A program made the position numbers and the translations under genes. From a virus, in IMG/VR virus record IMGVR_UViG_3300000839_000006: a stretch of 64,000 nucleotides of DNA. One strand, 5' to 3'. Numbering within the stretch: position 1 is the first letter of the stretch; every line of letters starts with the position of its first letter. Under the pieces are notes generated by a model. That model was not told where the DNA came from. It did no database searches and worked only from the letters and a program-made list of their open reading frames with translations. Below are positions 2,029 to 35,800 of the stretch, piece by piece.

Positions 2029-5000
2029 ATGAGTTTCACTCCGATTAAATTGACCCCGGACGGCTTGGCTCACGATAGAGCAGAACCCAACGAGCCGATG
2101 GATGTCCAGCACGTCCCGCTGAGTAACAGTCCTGAGAACATTGTTAAACGTGGAAGCACTGGTATCTACGTTCTGCCCGCTGATGCCGTGTCCACAGCCG
2201 ATGGGAACTTGATTAAGGTACAAGATGGCAAGCTGGCGGTGTTTGCGCCTGATACTTTGAGCGCGGACCCCGGCAACTACCTGCGTAGAGGTAACGATGG
2301 CAAGCTGTACATTGGTGCAGTAGAAATTTCGTCCCTTGATGCGGACAATACAATACTGCTTGGCACTGATGGTCGGTTGAAAGTAGTCCTCCCCTTGTCC
2401 ACAGAAGAATATAACTACCTGCGCCGTGGGGCTGATGATAAACTGTTCGTTGGCGGCAACGACATCCTGTCCAATGAGGCCAACAACGCCCTCGGCATCT
2501 CGGATATTGACAAGAAAGTGTATCTTAAAGCTTGGGAGGCGCATGACTACATTTCCGATGAAGCCTGCAACCGCCTGAACATCGACAACGATGGCAAGAT
2601 ACGCCTGTGCGCTCATGACGTGACGGCCCATGATGACTGCAACCTGCTCATCCCGGTTGAAGACGGCCTGCGTCTGTGCGCCTCTGACGTTATTTCTTCT
2701 GACCCGGACAACCTGATAGTCACCGGGATGGATGAAAAGCTCATAGTAACCGTTACAGGGCTTCTGGACCACACCTGCGGCACTCTGGTGTCGGACAATG
2801 GCAAGCTGCGGCTCGATGTTCCTACACTGACCCGTCAGGGTGAGCTTGGTAACCAGATTGAGTCCGATGACTGCACCATGTGGGTGCCCATTCAGGTATC
2901 GTCTGATGCTGGTAACCTGATTGAGATTGGGTCGGATGCCAAACCTCTGGTGCAGGCTACGAATCTCGTAGCTATTACACCTGATTTGGCCTGTAACAAG
3001 CTGACGATTGTTGACAACCGCCTCGCTGTACAGTCGGCTGACCTTGTGTCGGTTGCCATTGGCAACCAGATTGTAGTGGACCCGGCAGATTGTTCGCTCA
3101 ATGTCCCGCCGCAGAGGTCGATGGACATAGATAACTTGCTGCTTCTCGGCTCTGACTACAAGCCGCTGGTTAAAGCCAATAATCTGATAAGTCTCGATTG
3201 TGAGTCACTGACTGTTGGTAGTGACGCCCGGTTGGTGATTGACACTACGAAGCTCGTATCCATCATAGCGGATAATCAGCTTGAGGCTGACGGTACCTGT
3301 CAGTTGTATGTCCCTGTACAGGTGTCTACGGATGCCGACAACGCCATTGAGGTTGGTACTGACAACCGTCCGTTCTATAAGCTGGTGCTGTCGCCTGAGA
3401 CTGGCAACTTGCTCTGGCTTGATGCGGACGGTCTGCCCGGTATTAAAGCCTCGGATGTACTGTCCACTGATGCATGTAATGCCATTCACCTTGGTTCGGA
3501 TGACCTGTTGTCGCTTTGTCCTGTGGATGTTGTGTCCATGGATGCTGACAACTATCTTGAGCTTGGCTCTGATGGACTGCTCATGGTGAATCAGCCCGGT
3601 CCTCAGGGGCCGCAAGGTCCTACTGGACCGCAGGGGCCGGAAGGACCTGAAGGTCCGCAGGGTCCCACTGGTGGCGGTGGCGCACAGGGGCCGAAAGGTG
3701 ACCCGTTGCAGATTTACAAGACCTACGAGTCCATCGCTGATATGGAGGCTAACTGCGGGGATTCGGATGTGCCTGAGTTTGGCCTTGTTATGATTGACCC
3801 TGATGATGTGCAGGACCCCGACCAGTCGAAACTGTACATGCACACACCCAACAAGGTTGATGAGCATGGCGACCCTGTGTGTTGGACCTATATTACAGAC
3901 CTGTCCGGTGCTGTTGGTATTACAGGTCCGCAAGGTCCGGTTGGACCACAGGGGCCGCAGGGGTCTGTTGGTCCTGAAGGTCCTACAGGGGACCCCGGTG
4001 GTGATGGGCCTGAGGGACCGCAGGGGCCGCAGGGTGTAGCAGGTCCGCAGGGACCCGCTGGTGATGATGGGCCTGAGGGACCGCAGGGGCCGCCGATGGA
4101 ACTGTCGGAAATGTCCTGCAACAAGTTGAAACTCGATGTACAGCATGAGGTGTACTTGTGCGCCGCTGATTTGATTTCCTCTGAGCCGGGTAACTGGTTG
4201 CAGCTTCGTGACAATGAGTTGTATGTGTACCCCGGCGGTGGTGGGGATGACCCGCTTCGTGAGCTTATCTCTGATGACTGCGACAACAGGCTGTCCATTG
4301 GGTCTGACCTTCGTGTCAGCTTGAGCAATGAGGATGTAGTTAAGTCTGCTGCCACTACAGGGCTTACGACATTTGATGTGGTGCCCGGACCTGTTGCACT
4401 GGCTGATGGTGTTGCACCTGAGTGTGCGGCTATTCAGGTTGATGCCCGTCAGTTGTTGGCGAATGTGGCTGGTAACTTGATTAATATTGAGCCGCTGTTC
4501 GATACATTCGGTCCTCATGCCACGGCTTGTAATGATGTGTTCGCTACATATACGTCTGTGGCTGATATGGAGGCCGCACTTGGTACGGTGCCTGTGGGCA
4601 GCTTCGTGGTGATTATCACTACGAGTCCTTCTGACCCGAGTAATGGTAGTGTGTATCAGCGTGGTGATACCAGCTTTGTGTTCTACACAAGAACTGACCC
4701 GGCTAATCCGTGTGTGCCGATACATGAGTTCTATCAGTTCTCTGTGACTGCGAATAATCTTATATCCAGTGACGCCAGTAACACGCTTACGGTTGGTACA
4801 GACAACAGGTTGTATGCAACTGGAAGTTCCAGTGTGGTTGTGTCTGCTGATGCTAATAATGCCATTCAGGAAGGTACAGATGGTGGTGCATTCATCGAGG
4901 CTGGATGCGGTCTAGAGGTTATTGATGACAAGGTGTTGGTCGTAGCTCTGGATGAATCTTCGGCACTTGAGTGTACTGAGATTGGTCTTAAAGTAATGAT

Positions 5001-6372
5001 AAGTGGACACTCCAATAACATTATATCTAGATTTAGTGATGGACTGTATGCAGCCGTAAACCCAAGTGTGTCTGCGGATGCTGGTAACGTCATTCAGGAA
5101 GGTACAGACGGTGGCGCACTGTTGCAGGTAGCTGATGTTGACTCCGTTAATTTCCTTAAAAATACTGGTGGTGTACTCAGTGCAAGTGTCTCCGAGAATT
5201 TCGGGAACGTCCTTTACATAGGTTCTGATGAAGGCGTTATGTTGGCTTGCGCTGACTTGCGGGTAGAGGCTCCGTGGAACATGCTCATTGTTGATGGTGA
5301 GAAGCTGGCTGTTTACGCTAGCGATGCGCTGTCTGATTCCATATACAATCTTTTGAAACTGGATTATAACAATAAAATAATTCTTGAGCTTGGTGACCTA
5401 GTATCTTCTGATGGTGATAATGCTATTGTCGAAGGTACTGACGGTAAGATGTGGGTAGATGCTAACGGTCTTGTTGGACCACAAGGTCCGCAGGGCGTTC
5501 AAGGACCGCAAGGTGTGCAGGGTGCTACTGGGGCCACTGGTTCTACAGGACCTGAAGGACCCGAAGGACAAGAAGGTCCGCAGGGTGCTACCGGGGCTAC
5601 TGGTTCCACAGGACCTGAAGGACCAGAAGGTCCGCAGGGTGCTACCGGGGCTACTGGTCCGCAAGGTCCGCAGGGACCTGCTGGTGCGCCGTTCTCTATC
5701 TATGCGGTATACGCATCTATAGCGGACATGGAGGCTGACTTTGCCAATGTGCCAGAAGGCAGTTTTGTTATCATAGAGTCCGGCGACCCGGATGACCCTG
5801 ATAACTCCAAGCTGTTTGTACGTAGCGCGTCTGAGTTTGACTTTATAACAGACCTCTCCGGTTCACAGGGTATTCAGGGGCCGCAAGGTGTTCAGGGTAT
5901 TCAGGGTCCGAAGGGTGATACTGGGGACCAAGGCATTCAGGGTGCTACCGGGGCGACTGGGGCTACCGGGTCCACTGGACCGCAAGGTCCCGCTGGTGGT
6001 ACGGGTCCTGCTGGCCCTAGCGCGGTTTCTACGGACACTGGGAACCAAGCGGTACTTGGCACTGACAGTTTGATTTTTGTGCCCAAGACGGCTGATTTCC
6101 CGCTGTATTTTAATGCGGATGAGAGCATGACCACCATCTACTCGTTCATGCCGACTGGCTACTCGACTGTGGCTATTGTTGGCAAGGCTGGTGACGCTGC
6201 TGTTACTGGACTGACTATCACTATTACGGAGCAGTATAACGCTTCGCCTGCGGTAGTTAATCTCAGCGGTAATACGGCTTCAAGTATGACGAGTGTTGCT
6301 GGTAAGCCCGTGATGATTACGTTTGGTGGGACAACCGCTACGGAAGTAAGCGCGTTGCTGAAGCTTCAATAG
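2029..6372 (+). CDS. long tail fibre with SxDxxN...GxDG repeats, four collagen (G-X-Y) blocks and three copies of a Y.S.ADMEA domain
   Basis: 1447 aa. GPQGP runs near 3595-3700, 3920-4090, 5470-5690 and 5860-6020. RBS GGAG upstream. Confidence 0.8.
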
Positions 6373-6380
6373 TATAACAT

Positions 6381-6414
6381 GGGGAGAGCGGTTTAACATC
6401 GCTCTCCCCTATTA
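6381..6414 (+). terminator. hairpin between tail fibre and AT-rich cassette (terminator or processing site)
   Basis: GGGGAGAGCG-N9-CGCTCTCCCC followed by only TATTA (weak U-tract). Confidence 0.4.
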
Positions 6415-6424
6415 CGGGGTAGCT

Positions 6425-7036
6425 ATGCTAGGATATACAAAGCCAGTACCCTCAGTACCACATGTACTGATTGAGTATATACAGTCTGATAAGGGTCAGT
6501 ATTTGGACCTAGGACTGCTTTGGGGTAATACACAATATAAAGTTGAATTGGATTTCTTGCTTCCAACACCTAGTAATGCGCAAGTTTCTATACTCGGTTC
6601 CAGAAATGATACACCGAGTACTGCACGTTTCGGCAGTTTATATTTCGGTTCCACTAACGTGCAAGGTGTATGGGTGGGGTCGGCTTCTAATAGATTGCCG
6701 AATACGTTTGTGTCCATGACACGTTACCTGTATTCTGTTGAAGTGTTTCAGCCCAGTTTGCAGCTTGTAACAGAACTTGACGGTGTTGTGAGAACTTCTA
6801 CATACACTGGACTGACAGATACTGGCATACCAGTATATTTGTTTGGTGCGAATTTGAATGATAACATCGTTGAACGTAGTGCGATTCGCATGTACGGTTT
6901 CAAGTCGTGGTCTAATAATGTGTTGATTCGAGATATGGTTCCTGTGCTTGATATGACGAATCGCCCTGCACTGTGGGATAAAGTCAACGATGTATATTAC
7001 TACAATCAGGGAACCGGGGAGTTTACATATGTTTGA
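6425..7036 (+). CDS. ConA/LamG-like lectin module, putative tail adhesin
   Basis: IEYIQS..QYLDLG ... LIRDMVPV ... WDKVNDVYYYNQGTGEF pattern as seen in gut-phage tail lectin domains. N-terminal MLGYTKP motif shared with downstream genes. Confidence 0.55.
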   Translation: MLGYTKPVPSVPHVLIEYIQSDKGQYLDLGLLWGNTQYKVELDFLLPTPSNAQVSILGSRNDTPSTARFGSLYFGSTNVQGVWVGSASNRLPNTFVSMTRYLYSVEVFQPSLQLVTELDGVVRTSTYTGLTDTGIPVYLFGANLNDNIVERSAIRMYGFKSWSNNVLIRDMVPVLDMTNRPALWDKVNDVYYYNQGTGEFTYV

Positions 7037-8063
7037 TATACTTGGTGGATATACATTACGAACAATTCCAGAACCTCCTGTTGGTTATAGTACTGATATA
7101 GAAATCACAGTTAATCCTACAGTTGGTGTAAGTTATCGAACTGTTTTCGCTAGAGGAGAAGCTGGTACTAGTATACTAAATATAGATTGGGGTGATGGTA
7201 ATGTTCAAAATTACAATCTTGTTGGAACAACTCCCAATGTTATTAACTATACATATTCAATATCTGGAAGTAAAACAATAAGAGTTACATCCGATGACAT
7301 TGTTGGAAGTATATTATTTGGTGTTAATGGTACTATTAATACTATTGCTAAGATATTAACTGGAATCCAAAAGTTTCGGGCACTTACTGCAAAAGAAATA
7401 CTTTATTGTTTTGCCTATGCTGAAACTTTTAATGGTCCTATACTGGCAACTTTTTCAGATGAAGATTTACCTTTAGTTGAAAATTTTAGTTATTGCTTTT
7501 CGCATTGGAGTACATTTAATCAGCCTTTACCTCAGAATTTTATGTCAGGAAATTATCCTAATGTAACTAATTTTCAAGGTTGTTTCGATTACTGGACTGT
7601 TTTTGATAAAGCGTTACCTCAGAATTTCATGTCTGGAAATTACCCTAATACTACTAGATTTACTGCATGTTTTAGGGATTGGCAGGCATTTAATCAGCCC
7701 TTACCTCAGAGTTTCATGTCGGGTAGTTGTTCCAGTGTAACTGAGTTCTCTGTTTGTTTTTATAATTGGAGGTCATTTAACCAACCCCTTCCAGTGGGGT
7801 TCATGTCAGGAAATTACCCTAGTGTAATTACTTTTGCTCTGTGTTTCTATAATTGGGTAAAATACATTGGAACAATACCTATTGTGAAATCCTTGAAATC
7901 AAATGTTGCTTTTAATCAATGTTATTATGGTAATTCCAGTATGACCGGAAACGGTATGCCTGTGGTTAATAACGCAGTTGTTCCGCTAGGTACTATATCA
8001 CAATGTTTTAATGGTTGCACCTCTCTATCTGATTACGCACAAATACCTTCGGGATGGAAATAA
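7029..8063 (+). CDS. BspA/DUF285-like LRR protein 1 (about 5 repeats of 29 aa)
   Basis: FNQPLPxxFMxGxYPxVTxFxxCFxxW repeats. Start reassigned to ATG 7029 (MFDILGGY). Ends CTSLSDYAQIPSGWK. Confidence 0.75.
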   Translation: MFDILGGYTLRTIPEPPVGYSTDIEITVNPTVGVSYRTVFARGEAGTSILNIDWGDGNVQNYNLVGTTPNVINYTYSISGSKTIRVTSDDIVGSILFGVNGTINTIAKILTGIQKFRALTAKEILYCFAYAETFNGPILATFSDEDLPLVENFSYCFSHWSTFNQPLPQNFMSGNYPNVTNFQGCFDYWTVFDKALPQNFMSGNYPNTTRFTACFRDWQAFNQPLPQSFMSGSCSSVTEFSVCFYNWRSFNQPLPVGFMSGNYPSVITFALCFYNWVKYIGTIPIVKSLKSNVAFNQCYYGNSSMTGNGMPVVNNAVVPLGTISQCFNGCTSLSDYAQIPSGWK

Positions 8064-8140
8064 TTATGAATGATATACTTGGTGGATATACGCATAGAAG
8101 CGTTGGACCATTAGTTCCAACGACTGAAATAGAGTTTGTT
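8015..8140 (+). repeat. 126-bp direct repeat copy 1 spanning an LRR gene junction
   Basis: Matches 10356-10481 with 9 mismatches by eye. 8037-8100 is a 64-bp identical core. Partial copies at 7029-7054, 8767-8808 and 11711-11757. Confidence 0.9.
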
Positions 8141-8803
8141 ATTACAGCCACTGTACCGCGTTCCATAGCTACTACAGTATTGGTTGATGGTACTGGTATC
8201 ATGTATAACAGCATAAATGGAGTTGAGGGAATTCCGTGGGAGATGGAAGAGTGGGTAACTGACCAGTTTTATACAAGTTATGGTGTTGGTGAACATGTGG
8301 TGCGTCTGTGGTCTTATAGTAATATATATAATGTAGATTTGGTATCTCAAAGTGTGCATTATGATATAACTACAATAAATGTGTGGCGTAGTGATACGAT
8401 AACAAGTATGCAGACTGCGCTTCGTGGTAATGTTAATGTACACACACTTATACCAAGTTTTGCATCAGATACATTACCATTGTGTACTAATTTTGCTGAT
8501 TGTTTTTCGCATTTGAATAGCTTGGTAACACCCTTACATCCTAATTTTATGGGTGGTGATTATACACGTGTTTTATATATGAACCAGTGTTTCGGTGATT
8601 GGGCTAGCTATGCTGGTCCTATCCCTATTGTAAACGCAAGCTCATACGCTAATTATTTCGGTTGTTATTATGGTAATAGTTTAATGACTGGAACTGGAAT
8701 GCCTGTAGTAAATAGTGCGCCTAACTCTACAAGCTATGCGTCATGTTTTAAAGGTTGTACTTCGCTCTCTGATTATGCACAAATACCTTCAGGATGGAAA
8801 TAA
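8066..8803 (+). CDS. BspA/DUF285-like LRR protein 2 (about 2 repeats)
   Basis: Starts MNDILGGYTHRS, has the same C-terminal cap, ends CTSLSDYAQIPSGWK. Confidence 0.7.
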   Translation: MNDILGGYTHRSVGPLVPTTEIEFVITATVPRSIATTVLVDGTGIMYNSINGVEGIPWEMEEWVTDQFYTSYGVGEHVVRLWSYSNIYNVDLVSQSVHYDITTINVWRSDTITSMQTALRGNVNVHTLIPSFASDTLPLCTNFADCFSHLNSLVTPLHPNFMGGDYTRVLYMNQCFGDWASYAGPIPIVNASSYANYFGCYYGNSLMTGTGMPVVNSAPNSTSYASCFKGCTSLSDYAQIPSGWK

Positions 8804-8805
8804 TT

Positions 8806-10404
8806 ATGTTAGGCTATCAGAAACCTACGGCTGTGCCCGTACCTACTACAGAGATTGAATGGGTTATTGATTTACCGTCTACCATGTCATATACATTCCA
8901 TTTGACGGGGGTTACTGGTGCAAATGTTTATGTATCATATGATGGTATTGTTGAAAGTGTGTTAGTACTTTCCAGTCCTAGTGTTGTTGATGTTATTAAA
9001 AGCCTTTCTGCCGGACAGCATGTAGTACGTGTCTGGTCTTTTGATGAATTACGCCGTGTTTATTTGGCGGATGCTGCTTATGCTCAATATGTTACAGCTA
9101 TAAATAAGTACGCTAGTAGTACAATTAATAGTATGGTGAACGCTTTTAATGATTGTATCAGTGTCAGTACAATATTACCTAGTTTTACGGCAGATACACT
9201 ACCACTTGTTACTTCGTTTGAGAACTGTTTTAGAAGACTTATATCATTTAATGGGGTTCTACATGAAGATTTCATGTCCGGTGATTATCCATTAGTAACT
9301 AGTTTTGAAAGATGTTTTGCTTTCTGGTTTATGTTTAATAATGAGCTACCTAGTGGTTTCATGTCAGGAGAGTTTCCGGTAGTTGTTAATTTTATGTATT
9401 GTTTTAATCGGTGGGAGGTTTTTAATAAAGACTTACCTGCTGGTTTTATGTCAAATACCTATCCACTTGTTAAATATTTTGAGTCTTGTTTTTATTTATG
9501 GAGTTCTTTTAATAAGCCGCTACCAAGTGAGTTTATGGCTAAACAGTATAATAGTGCAATAACATTTGATTTATGTTTCGCTGGTTGGGCACAGTTTAAT
9601 CAACCACTCCCTGTTAGTTTCATGTCTGCAACTTTCCAATTGGTAACGACATTCCAGAGTTGTTTTTTGAATTGGACACAGTTTAATCAACCCCTTCCTG
9701 TTGATTTTATGTGTGGGGATTATAATAATGTAATAACATTTAGTAATTGTTTTTCTGGATGGGAACATTTTAATCAACCCCTTCCTGTTGATTTTATGTG
9801 TGGTACATTTTCAAGTGTTAGTGCTATGAATAATTGTTTCCACCGATGGCTTGTGTTTAATAATACACTACCATATAATTTTTTATCTGGTGGACATATG
9901 ACTGTGACTACATATGATTCATGTTTTAGTCAGTGGCGAGCTTTTAATCAAGTACTTCCTGTAAGTTTTATGACGGGTGACTTTCCTGCACTTACAACTA
10001 TGGCATCATGTTTTATTGGATGGAATGTCTTTAATAAAATGCTACATGTTGGTTTTATGACTGGAAATTTTCCAAACATAACTAACTTTGCTAGTTGTTT
10101 TAGGGATTGGTTGGTTTTTAACAGTACATTACCAGTAGGGTTTATGCAGGGGGTATATAATAAAGTTATTTCATACGCTTACTGTTTTTATCAATGGACG
10201 GCGTATACTGGAAATATACCAGTTATATTATCAGATTTATCTGGTGTAGCATTTCAAAGTTGTTATTATAGAAATATTAATATGACAGGGAGTGGAATGT
10301 CTGTAGTTGCTGGTGCAATAATTCCTGTAGGTGCTACTACGTGGTGTTTTACAGATTGCACCTCTCTATCTGACTATGCACAAATACCTTCGGGATGGAA
10401 ATAA
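8806..10404 (+). CDS. BspA/DUF285-like LRR protein 3 (about 12 repeats)
   Basis: Starts MLGYQKP..VPTTEIEW, 29-aa repeats, same C-terminal cap. Confidence 0.75.
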   Translation: MLGYQKPTAVPVPTTEIEWVIDLPSTMSYTFHLTGVTGANVYVSYDGIVESVLVLSSPSVVDVIKSLSAGQHVVRVWSFDELRRVYLADAAYAQYVTAINKYASSTINSMVNAFNDCISVSTILPSFTADTLPLVTSFENCFRRLISFNGVLHEDFMSGDYPLVTSFERCFAFWFMFNNELPSGFMSGEFPVVVNFMYCFNRWEVFNKDLPAGFMSNTYPLVKYFESCFYLWSSFNKPLPSEFMAKQYNSAITFDLCFAGWAQFNQPLPVSFMSATFQLVTTFQSCFLNWTQFNQPLPVDFMCGDYNNVITFSNCFSGWEHFNQPLPVDFMCGTFSSVSAMNNCFHRWLVFNNTLPYNFLSGGHMTVTTYDSCFSQWRAFNQVLPVSFMTGDFPALTTMASCFIGWNVFNKMLHVGFMTGNFPNITNFASCFRDWLVFNSTLPVGFMQGVYNKVISYAYCFYQWTAYTGNIPVILSDLSGVAFQSCYYRNINMTGSGMSVVAGAIIPVGATTWCFTDCTSLSDYAQIPSGWK

Positions 10405-10481
10405 TTATGAATGATATACTTGGTGGATATACGCATAGAAGTGTTGAACCATTGGTTCCAACCACGGAGATTGAGTTTGTT
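10356..10481 (+). repeat. 126-bp direct repeat copy 2 spanning an LRR gene junction
   Basis: Offset 2341 bp from copy 1. Confidence 0.9.
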
Positions 10482-11759
10482 GTGGATTTGATGGATGAAA
10501 AAGAATTTACATTTTTAGTATGGGGTCCCGCCGGGTCGCAGTTTCATGTTTCATACAATGGCGTGGAAGATAGTATACACACGTTAGGTGGTGTTTATTC
10601 TTATGCAGTATCTAAGGAGTTATCTATTGGTGATTGCACTATACGATTATGGTCTTATGATAATATACATCGTATAGCCGTACATAACCAAATTTATACG
10701 GAGGATTTTGATGTAATTGAGCTTAGACGATACCAGAGTAGCACAATAATTAGTATGGAACATGCGTTTTTTAATTGTCGCAGACTAGCTGTATGTTTAC
10801 CTAGTTTTACATCGGACACACTCCCTTTAGTAACAACGTATGACGGGTGTTTTTGCGGGTGGCATACATTTAATGGTGTATTACATGCTGATTTTATGTC
10901 TGGAGATTATTTATTAGTCACGTCTTTCGCTGCTGCATTTTCTGAGTGGTTTATGTTTAATCAGTCTTTACCTAATGGTTTTTTGTGTGGTGCTATGCCG
11001 TTTGTGGAAAGTTTTAACTACACATTCAACGGTTGGTGGGCATTCAATGATGTATTACCAGCTACATTTATGACACAACAGTTCCCTAGTTTAGTTAATA
11101 TATCATATTGCTTTAGTGCTTGGCGGCATTATAACCAGCCGCTACCAGTAGGTTTTATGTGTCAATACTTTCCAGTGCTATATACATTGGTTGGATGTTT
11201 CAGTGGTTGGTGGGATTTTAATCAAGTATTACCTACAGGTTTTATGTGTCAATCATTTTCATTGGTACAGTCTTTTCAACTTGTTTTCAGTGGTTGGGAG
11301 AGTTTTAATCAAGTATTACCTACAGGTTTTATGTGTCAATCATTTCCATTAGTACAGTCTTTTCAGTCTACATTTAGCTTTTGGAGAGCTTTTAACCAAG
11401 TTCTTCCAGCAGGTTTTATGTGTCAAGATTTTTCTTCGGTAGTAACTATGCGTAGCTGTTTTAGTGTGTGGAGTACTTTCAATAAGACGTTGCCAATAGG
11501 CTTTATGCTTGGTGGTACTGGTAATGTATTAGATTTTAACGAGTGTATGTCAGTGTGGACATCTTATAGGGGTGCTATAGTGTTATTGTTTGGAACTACT
11601 ACAGCGAATTATGCTAGATGCTACAGTGCGAATCGTTATATGCAGGGTGCTGGAATGCCGCTAGTTATAACACATACTGGTGTTGGGGATATTACAGAGT
11701 GCTTCCGTGATTGCACCTCCCTCTCCGACTACGCCTCAATACCTTTCGGCTGGAAATAG
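10407..11759 (+). CDS. BspA/DUF285-like LRR protein 4 (about 9 repeats)
   Basis: Starts MNDILGGYTHRS, ends CTSLSDYASIPFGWK. Confidence 0.75.
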   Translation: MNDILGGYTHRSVEPLVPTTEIEFVVDLMDEKEFTFLVWGPAGSQFHVSYNGVEDSIHTLGGVYSYAVSKELSIGDCTIRLWSYDNIHRIAVHNQIYTEDFDVIELRRYQSSTIISMEHAFFNCRRLAVCLPSFTSDTLPLVTTYDGCFCGWHTFNGVLHADFMSGDYLLVTSFAAAFSEWFMFNQSLPNGFLCGAMPFVESFNYTFNGWWAFNDVLPATFMTQQFPSLVNISYCFSAWRHYNQPLPVGFMCQYFPVLYTLVGCFSGWWDFNQVLPTGFMCQSFSLVQSFQLVFSGWESFNQVLPTGFMCQSFPLVQSFQSTFSFWRAFNQVLPAGFMCQDFSSVVTMRSCFSVWSTFNKTLPIGFMLGGTGNVLDFNECMSVWTSYRGAIVLLFGTTTANYARCYSANRYMQGAGMPLVITHTGVGDITECFRDCTSLSDYASIPFGWK

Positions 11760-24265: not shown

Positions 24266-25882
24266 ATGGGAGCTATAACACAGTTCGGTGGAATATTCCC
24301 TCGGACCCCTTGGCACCTGTTGCCCGAAAATGCCGCTACAAAGGCTCACAATGTGAAATTGCGTAATGGGAAGCTTGAGCCTTGGCGGGAGACAAAAAAG
24401 CTCTCAGTAGCCGTTCCAGAGGCAAAGACGTTGGTGGCTGTAGGGTGCTGTATGATGACGTGGGATACGTGTGTCTCGACCACGGAATACTTGCCGGATT
24501 ATAACCGACTTTATTTGACAGGGCGGGTTGACCGCCCTGAAGTGGCAGTGCTGGACCCAAATTGTAATCCTACATATTTCTACCTTGGTGCCCCGGAACC
24601 TATAGCCGCCCCGCGTTTGAGCTTTACAGAGGCTACAGGACGTGATTGTTCGGCACGTGCTTATGTGTATACCTTTGTAAATATCTTTGGGGAGGAGTCT
24701 GCTCCAAGTACACCAAGCCAGTTGGTTTCTGTTCGTGATGGTGACCCAGTAGTTCTTATGGGCATGGAGACACCTCCGGCTGGTTATGGCGTAGTTAATA
24801 TGCGTATCTATAGGTCATCCACAGCGTATCGTACAGGGGCTGAGAAAGAACAAGACCCACTTACTGACTATATGCTGGTAGCTGAGATTGAATATACTAC
24901 GAGTTTCACAGATGCGCTACTTGAAAAGTTTCTTGGCCCTGTATTGAACACTCGTGAAGTACGGTTACCGCCGAAAGCACTTCGGAATATATCACATGTA
25001 GTAGGAACTGGCGCACTTGTTGGTGTAACAAACAATCAGGTACATTTCTCGCAGAACTTTCAACCTTATAGCTGGCCTGCGGAATACGACATGACATTAA
25101 ATCACAACATAGTCAATATGGTTACTATTGACCAACAAGCTATCGTATCCACAGATGGGTATCCATATGTTGTAAGTGCTGCTCCAAACTGTGAGGCTCG
25201 TAAATGTAGAGCCGTGAATGAAGTTGATATACCACTTCCAGATATAAGTTGTGGGTATGCGAACTCTGCCATAGCTACGCCATTTGGGATGGTGTATAGT
25301 TCAAAGGATGGATTGGTCCTTGTTTCCACAGATGCGAAGTTTCAGGTGATAACTTCTGCGTGGTATAGTACGGATGACTGGGTGAAAATCAGGCCGGATA
25401 CCGTCAGGCTGGCGTACTGGCGAGGATACTTGATTTGTGTCACCGATGTGGTATCCTTCATGCTAGAAATTGACGGTAACACATACCAAGACTTTAAACT
25501 TGGTGCTATGGTTACGCTAAGTGACCAGCCTGTGGATATGTGGGTGAGTACGAATGGCGAGTTGTTATTGTTACAGGACCAAATAGTCTCGCAGTGGAAT
25601 GCTGGAAGTACTTTACGTCCATATATATGGGAGAGTCGTGAGATGCACTTTGGTGGTACTGCATCACCAAATACTGCGAAGTTAAAAACTACTGGGATTG
25701 AGTTCAGACTGTTGACACCCGTTGGTGGATTGGATTACACACGTTTTATAATGAACGATAAGCCGTTCAGACTTGGACGACTTGGGCGACATCTATACTA
25801 CAGGATGGGGTTTTATGGTATTGGAGTAGTAGAACACGCAGAGCTAGGTACAGCAAACGTAACAATAAACCAAGGTAAATAG
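24266..25882 (+). CDS. tail tubular B/nozzle-like (beta-propeller) protein
   Basis: FGGIFPR start, YVYTFVNIFGEESAPS motif, 538 aa. Confidence 0.6.
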   Translation: MGAITQFGGIFPRTPWHLLPENAATKAHNVKLRNGKLEPWRETKKLSVAVPEAKTLVAVGCCMMTWDTCVSTTEYLPDYNRLYLTGRVDRPEVAVLDPNCNPTYFYLGAPEPIAAPRLSFTEATGRDCSARAYVYTFVNIFGEESAPSTPSQLVSVRDGDPVVLMGMETPPAGYGVVNMRIYRSSTAYRTGAEKEQDPLTDYMLVAEIEYTTSFTDALLEKFLGPVLNTREVRLPPKALRNISHVVGTGALVGVTNNQVHFSQNFQPYSWPAEYDMTLNHNIVNMVTIDQQAIVSTDGYPYVVSAAPNCEARKCRAVNEVDIPLPDISCGYANSAIATPFGMVYSSKDGLVLVSTDAKFQVITSAWYSTDDWVKIRPDTVRLAYWRGYLICVTDVVSFMLEIDGNTYQDFKLGAMVTLSDQPVDMWVSTNGELLLLQDQIVSQWNAGSTLRPYIWESREMHFGGTASPNTAKLKTTGIEFRLLTPVGGLDYTRFIMNDKPFRLGRLGRHLYYRMGFYGIGVVEHAELGTANVTINQGK

Positions 25883-29877: not shown

Positions 29878-32800
29878 ATGGCTGGTGGCACATTTGGGTG
29901 GGGAACTGCACCCTCAGGACTCCCGAAACCGATGGGTATGGATGCTCTTATCAAGGCTACTGAGCCTTCTAAGAAAGAGCAGCGTGAACTTGCGCAGGAA
30001 CAGGCTACTACGCAAGCGAGGGCTATTGAGCAACAGGTACAGACAGACTTTAATGCCAATGAAAATTTTACGCAGTTGGCGTGGAGTGACCAGTTAAAGT
30101 ATATTGATGCGTGGGACAAAGAGTTTGGAGAGACTTGGCGTAAAGAAAATTTCGGTGATAACTGGGACTCTACAGATGCTAAGATTGCGCAACAGACTGC
30201 TCTAGCTCCATTGCGCAAGACCGCTAAAGATGGTGTAACACGTACTGCACAGACGTGGACTAATCTTGGAGATGATATAAAGCATGGTGTGCAGGATTTA
30301 TGGGCCTTGGCTCCTGCCACAACTGCTCGTGTTGCTACTGGTGCAACTCGTGAACATACACCAGAAGAAGATGCCGAGATGATTCGGCTGTATATAGCAC
30401 AAGATGATATTCAGAATAGCAGAGAATTATCAGAATATAGACAGCAACTACGAAAACGAATGGACCATCTCATACGGCAAGGTGGTGACCCTGACAATCC
30501 TAACTGGGAATTTGTTACGGCTGCGCTGCGTGATGGTGACTACGGCGATATTTTATCACTGGCTGCTAGTACTGCTGCCAGTAGTATTTCAACATCTATA
30601 CCTATACTTCTTGGACAGTTAGCTGGTAGAGGTATTGGTATGCTTGCAGGACCTGCTGGTGCTGCTGTGGGTGAATTTCTTGCAGAAGGTTTCAGTGCTG
30701 CCGCTGCCGCTGGTACATCAGGGCTTGATGCATCTGAGGTGTTTAATACTGTACGTAGGATGAAACCGGAAGTATTGCGTGAATCGCAAGCATATAAAGA
30801 TGCAAAGGCATCTGGAAGATTCGCTTCAGAGGAAGATATAATTAACTATGTTGCACTTAAAGGTGCAGATGCTGCGATGCCGGAACTTATGCTGGCAAAC
30901 GCTGCCGGGTCTTTCATAAGCCCCGCTGCTATGGCTGGTAAGACTGGTGCAGCCCGTTTACTTCCTGGTGGTATAGTCGGACGTACATTACAGGGTATCG
31001 GTCTTGGTACGGCTGAAGAAGCTTTACAGGAATCGTGGGTCACTAACGCTTCCAACAGAGCAATGATGCGGACAGTTCCAGAGTCTGGTATTACTCCGTA
31101 TGATGGTATGAAAGATTCCGCTTTACTTGGCGCACTCGGTGGTGGTCCAACTATTGGTGGTGCGGCTTTCGGGCGTGCCGCTGTTGATATGATGCGGGGT
31201 AGCAGTACAAATGTAGACCCGAATCTGCCGACTACTACAAATCCAAGTGACCCGAATCCTAACACGGCTGTTGTTGGTGGTGTGAATGTATATCAACAAA
31301 CACAAGCACCTGAAGCTGTACAACTTAATCAAACACAGATAGCTGAACGTAATGCACAGATTCAAGCTGGTCGCACAGCTATGAATGCTGCAACAACAAA
31401 AGCACAGGCACTCATCCATGATGGTGTTGATAATGCTTCTGTTGTAATGGATGACATTATTAATGACCTGTCCACAGCACAGCGTTCTGGTGTAGATTCT
31501 AATACTATTGAGAGTATTGTAGCTTCTGTAGATAATTCATCCAATGGAAAAGGTTTCGCTGCTCGATGGGCTACGGAGCTTTCAAACATTCAGCAGGCGG
31601 CACAGACTGCGCCTGCTACGAGTGTGGAACAGGCGACTGCAACACTTAATTCCATGACTGCCGATACCACTGGAGTTGATATTGACTTCACAAATGTGCA
31701 GGCTGCAATTGATATACTACAAGAAGATGGGCAGCTAACTCCTGAACAAGTAGACCAGTGGCGTGGCTACGCGCAGCAACGGCAGGCAGGTAGCACGTTA
31801 TATAATATACAGACTAATGGTGATTTCACAGATTCGGCTCAACGTACAGCATTTTATGACGCACTTAAAGTACTTGCGGAGGGTACCACTGCCCGTAATG
31901 TTGGGGGTTTCCTACAATCACAGCTTGATACGGTTTCTCAGGCATCCGGTGTTGATGCTGTTGCTGAATATCAGGCGCGGAGAAGGCAAACTCCGCAACC
32001 GATTCAAGTGGCTTCGCAGGCTGCACCCCCTTCCATTGTTCCCCGTCATAATGACGTACCTGTTCGTGGCTCTCAGGCGGCTCCTGCTGCATCTGAAGCA
32101 GCTCCGGCACCTTCGGGTCAGACAGCCCCTCAAACTGCCGCTGTACCGCCTCGTACAGTTGAGGCTCCAACTCGTGGTCTGCCCCGTGAGCGTGGTCATC
32201 TGGCGAGTGAGCGTGGGCGGGATGCTACAGTGGCTCGACTTCGGCAAGAGCTTACTCAGAGGAACGGTCCTATAAACCCTGCCACTGAAGCTATAACCGA
32301 GGCTACAACTGATGCAGCCGTACAGCAGTTCTTGCACCAGCAACTGTTGGCAAATGGTAGAACAGTAGAGTCCGCTGAGATAGAGTCCACAATCCTCACA
32401 CGGATGATGAATACACTCCGTAGCATTTCCGGTTTGACACATGCACAACAGCTTCGCCGCCTCACATTCGGTGTAGGTAAGAACCCTGTAGAAATAATGA
32501 ACAGCCTGTTTCAACTTGTATTCCACGGAAGCTCTAATCCACAAGCATTTACTGAAATAGACATGGATAGAATGTCTATGATGAATGATAGATGGGGGTT
32601 GTATGTAACATTCAGCAGATATCTTGCCGATAGCTATGCAGGAGTGAATGGACATTTATATGGAATAGAAGTTTCAGATACTGGTTATGCTGATTGGGGA
32701 TTACGTCTTGATAGACAACCTCCTGATGTACAGGAAAAATTACGTACAGTTGGTATGAATAATACACAAACTTTTTTACAATTTTATATACAATTACGTA

Positions 32801-35800
32801 AGCAGTTAGGAACCGCAAGAGCCGCTTCAGAACATTTGGCGCAAGCTGGTTTGAATGGTATTCGTTATTACTCTGGTTTACATACGGATTCGGCTGGTAA
32901 ATTTGTACAAGACCTTATTATTTTCAATAAGGATGCAATACTTTCATTGGATGTATTGCGTCAGGATAGTCGTGGACAAATAGACTTCCTCAGTGATGGT
33001 ACCGCACGTATAATATTTAGTGAAAATGCAGACGCATCTACTGCTATACATGAGTTTCAGCACTTTTACATGCAAGAGGCGTTCAACATTCTCTCCGATG
33101 AGTCCATACCTGACTCAGCTTACAAACGGAGACTTGCGGAGGACATGCGTGTTCTTGGTAAGTTTGCTGGTGTGGAAGGTGATGCTACACTACGGGATGC
33201 GTGGAGTACTGAACAGCATGAGACTATTGCGAAGGCTTTTGAGAAGTACATCCGTACTGGTAAGGCTCCTAATAACAGTCTCAAGTATGTGTTCGACAAG
33301 TTGAAGAAGTTGTTGACGGATGTATATGCCAAAGCAAAATACATAATGAAAGGCGACATCCCTGCTGATGTACGCAAAGTATTCGATAACCAACTTACGG
33401 GGTATACCAATGAGCAAGTTCGACAGATTGAGCAAGGAAGAACAGATAGCGTTGGTGAAGCAGGGAATCCAACTGATAGCCAATCAGAGGCCGATACCGG
33501 ACCAGTTGGCGATACAGTTCTCGCCCCGGATAATGCGCCGACTACTGGAACTGGTGGAACAGCTACACGCACAGGGACTGGTGGGGCCGCATACGCGGGC
33601 ACCGGAACGCCTCAAGCGAATATACAGCCTAGTCAACCGATACGCACCACCGGACAGAGAGCCGACAGCGGACGAAGTGGTGAGGTCATTAACGCCGCAG
33701 GCCCGGAATCAGATACTCAGCAACGAAGCAGTACTGGCTCGACAGAGCAACGCACAGGCGATGACGGACGCATCTCGGACACTGGCGTCCCTGAGGTAGA
33801 TTGGAATCCTGAACAAATTGCTGCTGAACGAGAAACACAGCTTGAGATAATTCGGGATAACTTGAGAGCCGATAATCCAGACCTGACGCCTGCACAGATT
33901 GAGAACATGGCGCAGGCTCAGTTATTCATGGAGCAGCAGGCTGATATAATATCTCCTGAAGAAGCTGTTGAGGTTGTGGAAGAGGCGCGTACAGCCAGAG
34001 AGCTTTCTGAAGAAGACCGTATGCAACGTGAAGTTGATAACAGGTCACTAGCCCGTATGCTGGCTGAACCGGGTGCAATACTACACCCGATTAATCAGAT
34101 GCAGGTTACTGAGCAAGAGCTTGACATTCTCATGCGTGGTACGCTTACACCAGATGCGGAAGTTGCAGGTAAGGCGAACAATATGAACAGGGACCAACCT
34201 GAATCCACCTCCGCACCACAACGTACTGCTGCCGAACCTGAGATAGAACTTACAGATGAAGAGAATGAGGTGGAGTCTCTTAGTGTTGCAGATACGGTAC
34301 GAAATATTATATCATCCATAGCTACACCAGACCCAATTGTTATAACTCAACGTGATGGTACGCATACATTGGATGCCAATCCACCTGTGGATAGTCAGAC
34401 AAACACAGCAGTTTCTGATATTATTATGACACAGGACAGAGAGATTACTGAATCACAAGAAACTGGAAGGCTTAGAAACCGTGCATTACGCGCACTGTGG
34501 AACAGTGGATTGCTTGGTTCTCCGCAGGCTGCTAGTCGTACACGTAATATTATGGCTACACTTGACACATGGTTAGCTGACGCAGACGGTAAGCTGCGTA
34601 TGATGTTGCATGAGATGGCTCCTGCTAATAAGGGTGGTACTGATACTAACCCGGCAGTACAGGCTCTCATTACTCATAAACCGAAAGTAGGTGCTATTCT
34701 ACAGCTACTCATGGACCAGTTTATAACACCTGTTAGTGTAGAGCTTAAACGTGTTTCACAATCTACAGGTGTTTCGATTATTGAAGTAATGCGTGACTTG
34801 GGAGAAGCTACACGCGATTACGCTATAATTGAACGTGAACCGCAGTTCCGTGCCAGACTTTCAGCAGAACTGGATGCGGCACAGGCTGAATTACTGCGTA
34901 ATCCAACACCTGCAAATCAGGCCAGAGCGCAAGAGTTGCAGATACAGTTCGACCACTATGTGTCGTGGCAGGAAAATCCTGACATGGCTACACGTATCCC
35001 CGGACAGCCTGAACCTGACCAGTTCCATGTCAAGGTCGGTAACAAGACCTTGGATGTGAGATATGCTGGCGGCATGACACGTTGGCAGGCAGAGAATCAC
35101 TACATTTCTATGGTAGAGAAATATGGTTTGGAAACTGTTGAACGTATAACTGACATGCAACGCACTTCTATTCGTGGTATAGCCCGCACATTACAACAAA
35201 ATGGATGCATTGATGATGCTACAGCAGAATCTTGGCGTAACCAATTCTTTTACGCACCACTTATGGTAGAGAATCCTAGTGGTGACGGAGCGGTGAATGA
35301 CATATCCATGTTCTCACCAAAAATGAATTACCGCCTGCGGGGTTCACAAACTCCTGCAATGGATTCATGGTCTGCTATGAACATGTTTGCGCAACGTGCT
35401 GCTAAATCCATAGCCATGCAAGAACTTGGTGTGCATCTGAATGAAGTTTACAAACGTGTCGGTGAAAATAACCGTTGGGGATTTATTCGTGAAGATGCTG
35501 ACCAAATATACGCACAAAAAGAAGCAGCTCAAGGTAGTGACGTTGATGCACTCAATGCGCAATTAGAGCGTATGGATGCAATCATTCGTGTTATGGAAGA
35601 CCAGACTGCTGAAGATGGTACAGTTACGCAGGTTATGAAAACTTATGGACTCCGGTTTGACCAAGAGAAAAACCCCGGTATGCATGTGTCATTTCGTAGG
35701 GCATTGGAGACAGACCCAACAATAGTTTCTAAAGCTGCACGTGCTATGGAGACAGCCACGAAGGGTTACGGAATGATGATGACATTCTTCCGTCCATTCT

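What the first reader, a model, noticed from the sequence alone, without database searches (positions are those of the whole stretch)
6425..11759. Modular adhesin cassette array: five genes share an N-terminal (I)LG(G)Y peptide, and four are LRR paralogues with a fixed C-cap and a variable repeat number
Seen: directly after the tail fibre, five tandem translationally coupled genes begin MLGYTKP, MFDILGGYT, MNDILGGYT, MLGYQKP and MNDILGGYT. The four LRR genes continue (V)PTTEIE or STDIEI into a beta-rich domain. They then carry about 5, 2, 12 and 9 copies of a 29-aa repeat (FNQPLPxxFMxGxFPxVTxFxxCFxxWxx) and end in a near-invariant cap (CY..N..M.G.GM.(V/L)V...CF..CTSLSDYA.IP.GWK). Framework positions are fixed while the xxF, xxC and FxxW positions vary widely between repeats. 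Known: BspA/DUF285-type LRRs are surface binding solenoids, with a shorter unit as I recall. Inference: the phage carries a repertoire of interchangeable binding modules (constant docking peptide, variable solenoid, constant cap), conceptually like lamprey VLRs, diversified without a DGR or invertase. This is the best candidate for an undescribed system in the window.
Basis: partly seen in the sequence, partly recalled or inferred. Interest (0 to 1): 0.85.

Follow-up and report, generated by a model that had tools for sequence, protein, structure and literature searches.

The report
Phage adhesin genes sharing an N-terminal tag
Behind its tail-fibre gene, an uncultured 65-kb phage carries five tightly packed genes for probable sticky proteins (one lectin-like, four leucine-rich-repeat) that all start with the same short peptide, which looks like a minimal tag for hanging different binding heads on one virus particle, though nothing yet shows the tag docks.

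Summary
Five tightly packed genes (6425-11759) follow a collagen-like tail fibre. All begin M(xxI)LG(G)Y. Four are paralogues built as disordered N-peptide, Ig/PKD-like beta-sandwich, DUF285/BspA-type solenoid and C-cap. They hold exactly 5, 2, 12 and 9 CFxxW motifs at a strict 29-residue spacing.

- The "constant cap" is not a device of this array. The same cap, WGDG sandwich and LRR occur in a bacterial BspA-like protein and at the C-terminus of tail-locus proteins of other phages.
- Stand-alone viral DUF285 proteins are abundant in metagenomes, and this scan has noted tandem LRR adhesin cassettes in other phages.
- A shared N-terminal module carrying different binding heads, LRR included, was described for phage Goslar in 2026.

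What is unusual here:
- The shared module is only about 10-20 residues and sits on two unrelated folds.
- The paralogues are old (dS saturated), yet both termini are under purifying selection.
- The block has a foreign composition (GC3 0.20-0.30).

No reverse transcriptase, serine invertase or inverted repeats were found. No relative carries the array, so variation could not be tested.

Best reading (about 0.5): alternative virion-displayed adhesins docked by the N-terminal tag. This is a new variant of a known kind.

The parts
2029..6372 (+). Collagen-like tail fibre (1447 aa), the gene directly upstream and the candidate docking platform
   Evidence: Pfam Collagen 2.5e-29, five stretches; PHROG tail and tail-fibre families down to 5e-69
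6381..6409 (+). Perfect 12-bp hairpin without a U-tract, between the fibre stop and the g1 start
   Evidence: RNA fold -25 kcal/mol, z = -3.8, 0 of 200 shuffles fold as well
6425..7036 (+). g1: 203-aa ConA-like/LamG-type jelly-roll protein carrying the tag MLGYTKPVPSVP
   Evidence: No Pfam, PHROG or NCBIfam hit. ESM Atlas model pTM 0.83; nearest clusters are about 200-aa viral proteins and Laminin_G_3/ConA-like. Relatives lie directly after a collagen-like fibre in L023
7029..8063 (+). g2: 344-aa LRR paralogue. Tag MFDILGGYT, WGDG Ig/PKD-like sandwich, 5 x 29-aa units (7428-7862), then the cap
   Evidence: PF03382 37.6 bits. AF2 pLDDT 73: residues 1-18 disordered, sandwich at 22-97, then a solenoid. 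Foldseek hits to BspA/PKD+LRR proteins
8066..8803 (+). g3: 245-aa LRR paralogue. Tag MNDILGGYT, 2 units (8435-8608), then the cap
   Evidence: The cap matches the phrog_9915 C-terminus at 7e-7. Atlas neighbours are viral DUF285 clusters
8806..10404 (+). g4: 532-aa LRR paralogue. Tag MLGYQKP, 12 units (9160-10203), then the cap
   Evidence: PF03382 31.5 bits
10407..11759 (+). g5: 450-aa LRR paralogue. Tag MNDILGGYT, 9 units (10782-11564), then the cap; includes the youngest repeat pair, r6/r7
8004..8121 (+). Junction repeat, copy 1: end of the g2 cap, stop, and start of g3
   Evidence: 118 nt, 93% identical to 10345-10462; flanks only 57% and 37% identical
10345..10462 (+). Junction repeat, copy 2: end of the g4 cap, stop, and start of g5
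   Evidence: The direct repeats bracket 2341 bp (g3 + g4) and could mediate cassette loss or gain

Best explanation
The five genes encode alternative adhesin or receptor-binding heads that are displayed on the virion, most likely on or near the collagen-like tail fibre. They are co-expressed with the fibre from the late operon. Each protein is a binding domain preceded by the same disordered N-terminal tag, M(xxI)LG(G)Y(T/Q), and a Pro-rich linker. The binding domain is a ConA-like jelly roll in g1. In g2-g5 it is an Ig-like sandwich plus a DUF285 solenoid of 2 to 12 units of 29 aa. The tag is proposed to be the element that docks each head non-covalently to one common site on the particle. 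One fibre or tail would then offer five binding surfaces of two different folds.

Shown: the gene anatomy, the fold class, family membership, conservation of the termini and tail-locus context.

Inferred: virion incorporation, docking through the tag, and the ligand (bacterial surface or environmental glycan/protein).
For: 1. Position and packing. The array lies directly after the fibre and before terS/terL. The gaps are 2 nt or overlapping, and no excess of promoter-like or terminator-like sites was found.
2. The same module (WGDG sandwich + DUF285 LRR + ...CT(S/K)LSDY..IP.G(W/Y)K end) is the C-terminal part of tail-locus proteins elsewhere.
   - A 968-aa protein follows a J-like tail protein in prophage-like L024 (phrog_9915 1e-128).
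   - An 890-aa 'tail protein' follows a tail fibre in Phapecoctavirus.
   - An LRR is fused to P2-type baseplate protein I in a Klebsiella phage.
   In those proteins the N-terminal part is the virion anchor. Here the anchor is replaced by a short tag.
3. Goslar virion mass spectrometry detects DUF7941-anchored paralogues carrying LRR or carbohydrate-binding heads (bioRxiv 10.64898/2026.04.21.720040).
4. The tag is shared by two unrelated folds (g1 and g4, 20-aa similarity). It is kept despite synonymous differences and saturated dS between paralogues.
5. The tag lies outside the fold. AF2 gives pLDDT below 50 for residues 1-18 of g2. Most Atlas structural matches to g3 start at residues 7-30 (two of ten start at 1 or 4).
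6. g1-type proteins recur directly after collagen-like fibres (L023).
7. TerL relatives of this phage carry four fibre genes with a common N-terminus of about 50 aa, so multi-head tails occur in relatives at about 55% TerL identity.
Against: - There is no direct evidence of virion association or of any tag-partner contact.
- The one complex prediction (fibre C-terminal 118 aa x 3 + g1) gave no verdict.
- Known shared anchors are folded domains of 40 to more than 150 aa, not about 10-20 residues.
- The g3 and g5 tags are nearly identical at DNA level inside a 118-nt converted junction. Part of the conservation is therefore recent recombination, not selection.
- The block is compositionally foreign (GC3 0.20-0.30 against 0.36-0.52 elsewhere). 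That also fits a dispensable accessory island.
- No relative carries the array, so there is no comparative support.
Confidence: 0.5

Rival explanations
1. The LRR proteins and g1 are virion adhesins, but the shared N-terminus is not a docking tag. It would reflect common descent, gene conversion and constraints of termination-reinitiation at the conserved stop-start junction (GGATGGAAATAATTATG...). Attachment would go through the Ig-like or jelly-roll domain or through a partner.
For: - The three LRR-LRR junctions are nearly identical at DNA level over about 55 nt.
- J23 and J45 are 93% identical over 118 nt, with a sharp fall in identity outside.
- Four of the five tags contain the same DNA word, GGATATAC.
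- An in-frame upstream ATG (MEIIM) is conserved at three junctions.
Against: - g1 and g4 share MLGYxKP with different codons (CTA/TTA, GGA/GGC, AAG/AAA, CCA/CCT).
- g1 has a different upstream context: a hairpin, and no preceding cap.
- g2 keeps DILGGYT although its junction with g1 is unrelated to the other junctions.
Confidence: 0.2
2. The block is a horizontally acquired accessory island whose products are not virion parts. They would act in or on the infected cell, for example in surface remodelling, superinfection exclusion, or as a binding decoy against a host defence sensor.
For: - Strongly deviant GC3 (0.20-0.30) against the rest of the genome.
- Absence from all TerL relatives.
- LRR solenoids are generic protein binders.
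- The closest cap match is a cellular surface protein (L027).
Against: - No signal peptide, lipobox or transmembrane segment can be seen at the N-termini by eye; no predictor was run.
- The block is embedded between fibre and terminase in the late structural operon without its own promoter signal.
- Phage homologues of the module are fused to tail or baseplate proteins.
Confidence: 0.15
3. The proteins are virion-displayed but are not receptor-binding proteins for the bacterial host. They would tether particles to environmental surfaces such as mucus glycans or eukaryotic cell surfaces, as in the 'adherence to mucus' idea for Ig-like capsid decorations.
For: - BspA-type LRR and ConA-like lectin folds are classical adhesin and glycan binders. 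This rests on established knowledge of the families; the fold evidence is.
- Five heads of differing length suggest several ligands.
Against: - The environment and host of this phage are unknown.
- Homologous modules sit on tail or baseplate proteins, which suggests host recognition.
- No data were obtained on ligands.
Confidence: 0.12
4. A VLR-like, shufflon-like or DGR-like programmed diversification system in which cassettes are recombined to generate new binding genes.
For: Direct 118-nt junction repeats could support unequal recombination. Repeat number differs among the paralogues.
Against: - No reverse transcriptase and no serine recombinase in the complete record.
- No inverted repeats.
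- All four genes are intact and anciently diverged, with dS saturated.
- The youngest repeat pair is still only 80% identical, with dN/dS about 0.4.
Confidence: 0.03

Closest known systems
Phage tail-locus proteins with a C-terminal DUF285/BspA LRR head (PHROG 9915 / PHROG 11922). Examples: the Phapecoctavirus 'tail protein' (Escherichia phage ukendt YP_009986904), the LRR-extended 'tail protein I' of Klebsiella phage ST16-OXA48phi5.4, and the prophage protein L024:5634-8540
   Same: The same module of small WGDG/Ig sandwich, DUF285-type solenoid and terminal cap ending ...CT(S/K)LSDY..IP.G(W/Y)K, and the same tail-locus position
   Different: There the head is covalently fused to a large tail or baseplate domain and is a single gene with units of about 25 aa. 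Here there are four stand-alone genes with a tag of about 10-20 aa in place of the anchor, and a 29-aa unit
Goslar DUF7941 'fibre cloud' family (gp22, gp23, gp86, gp92, gp161; bioRxiv 10.64898/2026.04.21.720040)
   Same: Several paralogous virion proteins share an N-terminal module and carry different distal heads, including LRR and carbohydrate-binding domains. Virion association was shown by mass spectrometry
   Different: The anchor there is a folded, self-oligomerising DUF7941 domain specific to chimalliviruses, and the genes are dispersed. Here the shared element is a short disordered peptide in a tandem operon of a 65-kb phage with podovirus-like terminase relatives. No DUF7941 hit appeared in the Pfam scan of g1-g5
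Multi-RBP phages with tandem tailspike or fibre genes sharing N-terminal anchor domains (CBA120 TSP1-4, G7C gp63.1/gp66, K1-5/SP6, PhiK64-1; from my own knowledge), and the four fibre genes of relative L008
   Same: Tandem genes for alternative binding proteins with a common N-terminus and divergent distal parts (for L008)
   Different: Those are trimeric fibres or spikes with structured anchors of 50 to more than 150 aa. Here the heads are LRR and lectin-type folds, which are usually monomeric (my own knowledge), with a minimal tag
Tip adhesins encoded downstream of the fibre gene (T2/T6/S16 gp38; from my own knowledge)
   Same: A separate small protein encoded just after the fibre that binds the fibre tip and supplies receptor specificity
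   Different: No sequence or fold relation was found. Here there are five alternatives instead of one
Cellular BspA/DUF285 surface proteins, e.g. L027:48-1811 (a metagenomic bacterial protein with a hydrophobic N-terminal anchor that resembles a pilin by eye)
   Different: The cellular protein has a membrane or pilin-type N-terminal anchor and 25-aa units, in a bacterial rather than phage context

Membership tests
DUF285 / BspA-family LRR (Pfam PF03382) | Pfam model match above the gathering score | tested here: met
   g2 37.6 bits and g4 31.5 bits against a cut-off of 25. g5 13 bits is sub-threshold and g3 has no hit, since only 2 units remain. The genome-level scan agrees
DUF285 / BspA-family LRR (Pfam PF03382) | Tandem units of about 25-26 residues forming a solenoid | tested here: inconclusive
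   The solenoid is predicted and Foldseek matches BspA-family proteins at 5e-8. The unit is 29 aa, not 25-26 (the relatives have about 25 aa). This is a length variant
DUF285 / BspA-family LRR (Pfam PF03382) | Family-type C-terminal cap and preceding WGDG/PKD-like sandwich | tested here: met
   The cap is 51% identical to the bacterial homologue and the WGDG segment aligns. The prophage homologue shares the cap
Multi-RBP systems with a shared N-terminal anchor | Several tandem genes with a common N-terminus and divergent binding parts | tested here: met
Multi-RBP systems with a shared N-terminal anchor | The N-terminus is a folded anchor domain that binds a virion adaptor | tested here: not met
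   The shared part is about 10-20 residues and is predicted disordered. Binding was not demonstrated, since the complex job gave no verdict
Multi-RBP systems with a shared N-terminal anchor | The proteins are virion components | not testable with these tools
   This needs virion proteomics or EM
Programmed diversification (DGR, shufflon/Gin-Cin inversion, VLR-type cassette assembly) | Reverse transcriptase, or a site-specific invertase with inverted repeats, or incomplete target plus donor cassettes | tested here: not met
   No RVT_1 and no Resolvase in the complete record. Zero inverted repeats. All genes are complete ORFs. Tyrosine recombinases were not searched
ConA-like/LamG jelly roll (g1) | Fold-level or profile match to Laminin_G_3/ConA-like lectins | tested here: inconclusive
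   There is no Pfam hit. ESM Atlas feature and structure neighbours include Laminin_G_3 clusters, with TM 0.80-0.86 to viral proteins of about 200 aa. My own AF2 model was poor, pLDDT 46

The most novel reading that the evidence does not exclude
A peptide of about 10-20 residues, M(xxI)LG(G)Y plus a Pro linker, is a portable, sufficient docking tag. It would let one site on the fibre or tail accept any of five heads of two unrelated folds. The phage would then display a mixed or stochastic adhesin repertoire whose size changes by recombination at the 118-nt junction repeats. That would be a minimal 'plug-and-play' receptor-binding system distinct from domain-sized anchors.
Probability: 0.3. 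Interest if true: 0.75.

Novelty: new variant of a known kind. Interest (0 to 1): 0.5.

Why it matters
If the tag really docks, it would be the smallest known module for attaching interchangeable binding heads to a phage particle. It would work across two unrelated folds. That is useful for understanding how phages widen or switch what they stick to, and it gives a simple handle for displaying proteins on virions.

It would also assign a role to the large, uncharacterised class of stand-alone viral DUF285 proteins seen in metagenomes.

If the tag does not dock, the locus is one more example of LRR adhesin genes in a phage tail region, a pattern already annotated in many phages.

Tried and rejected
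Searches for relatives of the array:
- Megablast of the locus against GenBank phages gave no match.
- tblastn of g1 against phages gave no match.
- Word-indexed protein searches returned only the window's own proteins for g3. For g1 they gave one weak 201-aa relative. For g4 nothing scored, not even the query itself, which is unexplained.
- An exhaustive HMMER search with a profile of the N-terminal 110 aa against 1.8 billion representatives found only the phage's own proteins plus weak Ig-like hits.
- IMG/VR, genome and metagenome scans found no second array. They did find single distant module relatives, L024 and L027.
- The back-translated M-x-DILGGYT pattern has no other hit in IMG/VR.
- TerL relatives (53-55% identity) lack g1-g5 and the collagen fibre.

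Other attempts:
- Complex prediction with the fibre C-terminus x 3 plus g1 scored 0.00, which is no verdict and no evidence either way.
- AF2 of g1 with a 3-row alignment gave pLDDT 46 and was unusable.
- PDB Foldseek gave no match at E <= 0.001. It gave only weak CBM-like hits for the sandwich and FSH-receptor LRR.
- Two sequencing-run look-ups listed none, so population variation and expression could not be examined.
- The fibre C-terminus has no similarity to the C-terminus of the L023 fibre.
- No homologue of the L008 fibre anchor exists in this window.

Ideas rejected:
- Frameshift fusion of successive genes. The downstream frames are open for only 11 codons before each start, and no slippery site was recognised.
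- Positive selection on the repeats. dN/dS is below 1 in all of the closest pairs.
Full report
**Context.** The window is almost all of a 65,279-bp IMG/VR virus record rated 100% complete. From the left it encodes the following genes:

| Coordinates | Gene | Evidence |
|---|---|---|
| 399-2025 | endolysin and lysis genes | |
| 2029-6372 | 1447-aa collagen-like tail fibre | |
| 6425-11759 | the five genes in question | |
| 11769 | terS | homology to relatives, |
| 12283 | terL | relatives at about 33% identity include podoviruses, |
| 13751 | portal | homology to relatives, |

**Observation.**
- Starts and junctions. g1/g2 overlap in ATGTTTGA, and the other three junctions read TAA-TT-ATG. The database's independent gene calls give the same lengths for g2 and g3.
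- N-termini. The five read MLGYTKP, MFDILGGYT, MNDILGGYT, MLGYQKP and MNDILGGYT. No other ORF start in the window carries LG(G)Y.
- Architecture. The four LRR proteins align end to end except for the number of internal units.
- Repeats. A regular-expression count gives exactly 5, 2, 12 and 9 CFxxW motifs, always 29 residues apart. TRF sees the 87-nt period.
- Variability. Entropy over the 28 units shows ten framework positions nearly fixed and the rest variable.

**What the proteins are.**
- g2 and g4 pass the Pfam DUF285 threshold.
- An AF2 model of g2 (pLDDT 73) shows a disordered N-terminus (residues 1-18), a beta-sandwich (22-97) and then a solenoid.
- Foldseek places the model among 'PKD domain / BspA family LRR' proteins, both viral (BFVD, 23 hits at E <= 1e-3) and cellular (AFDB clusters). 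The PDB has nothing close.
- The ESM Atlas shows that stand-alone DUF285 proteins of 250-450 aa form large, mostly viral clusters of 845, 575, 142 and 117 members.
- g1 has no family hit. Its Atlas model (pTM 0.83) resembles viral proteins of about 200 aa and ConA-like/Laminin_G_3 proteins.
- The two detectable IMG/VR relatives of g1 were found. In the one examined (L023), the gene lies directly after a collagen-like fibre in a siphovirus-like tail module.

**The cap is a family feature, not a design of this array.**
- A metagenomic bacterial protein (L027) has a hydrophobic N-terminal anchor (pilin-like by eye), the WGDG sandwich and 25-aa LRRs. It ends ...CTSLSDYASIPTGWK, and the cap is 51% identical over 47 aa.
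- A prophage-like contig (L024) has a 968-aa protein right after a J-like tail protein. Its residues 451-967 match phrog_9915 at 1e-128, and it ends ...GCTSLSDYNALPAAWRTE.
- Phapecoctavirus phages carry an 890-aa 'tail protein' after a tail-fibre gene that ends ...CTKLSDYNNIPSGYK.
- Sixty-six GenBank phage records carry phrog_9915-type LRRs. They include P2-like Klebsiella phages in which baseplate protein I is extended by an LRR.
- The module therefore recurs as a distal head of phage tail proteins, and its cap is inherited.
- The 29-aa unit is a longer variant of the usual unit of about 25-26 aa.

**The N-terminal tag.** This is the part that stands out.
- g1 is unrelated in fold to the LRR proteins, yet it shares MLGYxKP, a Pro-rich linker and the first strand with g4 over 20 aa. 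The same pattern appears more loosely against g3 and g5.
- The g1 and g4 codons differ at synonymous sites, so the peptide itself is what is conserved.
- The paralogues are old. Identity in the sandwich is 15-36% and dS is saturated. The last 22 cap residues have dN 0.14-0.28.
- By contrast, the g2/g3 and g4/g5 junctions share a 118-nt stretch at 93% identity, with flanks at 57% and 37%.
- The exact peptide occurs nowhere else in IMG/VR.
- The N-domain profile finds no true relatives among 1.8 billion representative proteins.

**Mechanism.** In every homologue with an interpretable context, the module's N-terminal side carries the anchor. That anchor is a tail or baseplate domain in phages, and a membrane or pilin-type segment in the bacterium.
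- In Goslar, several virion-associated paralogues share an N-terminal DUF7941 module and carry LRR or carbohydrate-binding heads.
- The TerL relatives of this phage encode four fibre genes with a common N-terminus of about 50 aa.
- By analogy, the short tag here is most likely what ties each head to the particle. This is inference.
- The only complex prediction allowed gave no verdict.
- No promoter or terminator excess separates the array from the fibre or the terminase genes. A strong U-tract-less hairpin lies between the fibre and g1.

**Against a programmed diversity generator.** The complete record has no reverse transcriptase and no serine recombinase. The locus has no inverted repeats. 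All the closest repeat pairs have dN/dS below 1.

**Origin.** GC3 of g2-g5 is 0.20-0.30 and of g1 is 0.38, against 0.36-0.52 in the other genes measured. The block therefore looks imported from a lower-GC source. This fits the low-GC bacterial and phage contexts of the nearest module relatives, L023 and L027.

**Limits.** No relative carries the array. No sequencing run was listed. Cassette-number variation, expression and host are therefore unknown.

**Verdict.** The locus is a new variant of a known kind: phage LRR adhesins, and multi-head virions with a shared N-terminal module. The distinctive point is a minimal shared tag across two folds. This scan has previously noted LRR-tipped virion proteins in Goslar-like phages and a triplicated LRR cassette in another phage.

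Noticed in passing
window 6425-11759 against the rest: The array is compositionally foreign. GC3 is 0.20-0.30 in g2-g5 and 0.38 in g1, against 0.36-0.52 in the other genes measured. GC3 is only 0.09 in the first 100 codons of g2.
   Followed up: partly
window 6381-6409: A perfect 12-bp GC-rich hairpin without a U-tract lies between the fibre stop and the g1 start (z = -3.8). It resembles the 'stop, hairpin, leader' modules another note reports in the early region. It may be an attenuator or an RNA-stability element that sets the fibre-to-adhesin ratio.
   Followed up: partly
window 8054, 8794, 10395: At three junctions an in-frame upstream ATG (giving MEIIM...) overlaps the preceding stop (GGATGGAAATAATTATG). 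It may be an alternative start or simply part of the conserved reinitiation context. The downstream frame is open for only 11 codons before each start.
   Followed up: partly
L008:428-5359: A TerL relative (55% identity) encodes four fibre genes that share an N-terminus of about 50 aa (M.IKV.NA.L.FKD..GN...R.L...) and have unrelated C-terminal parts. They lie upstream of the lysis genes and terS. This is a classical multi-fibre locus with no homologue in this window.
   Followed up: partly
L027:48-1811: A bacterial BspA-like protein has a hydrophobic N-terminal segment (pilin-like by eye), a WGDG sandwich, 25-aa LRRs and the same ...CTSLSDYASIPTGWK end. It lies next to a large ATPase-like gene and a flippase-like gene.
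   Followed up: no
L028:5813-8839 (Klebsiella phage ST16-OXA48phi5.4): P2-type baseplate 'tail protein I' is extended to about 1000 aa by an LRR domain related to phrog_9915. The ESM Atlas also has a 'phage tail protein I + Big_2 + LRR_5' cluster.
   Followed up: no
window 8806-10404: The word-indexed protein search with g4 returned 6799 candidates but none at E <= 0.001, not even the query's own record. g2 and g3 are in the collection. This is unexplained and may be a filtering effect of the repeats.
   Followed up: no
window 29878-37593: A 2571-aa ORF follows the internal-virion-protein genes (phrog_511 hit on 24266-25882). It is probably a giant ejection protein. It was not analysed here.
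   Followed up: no
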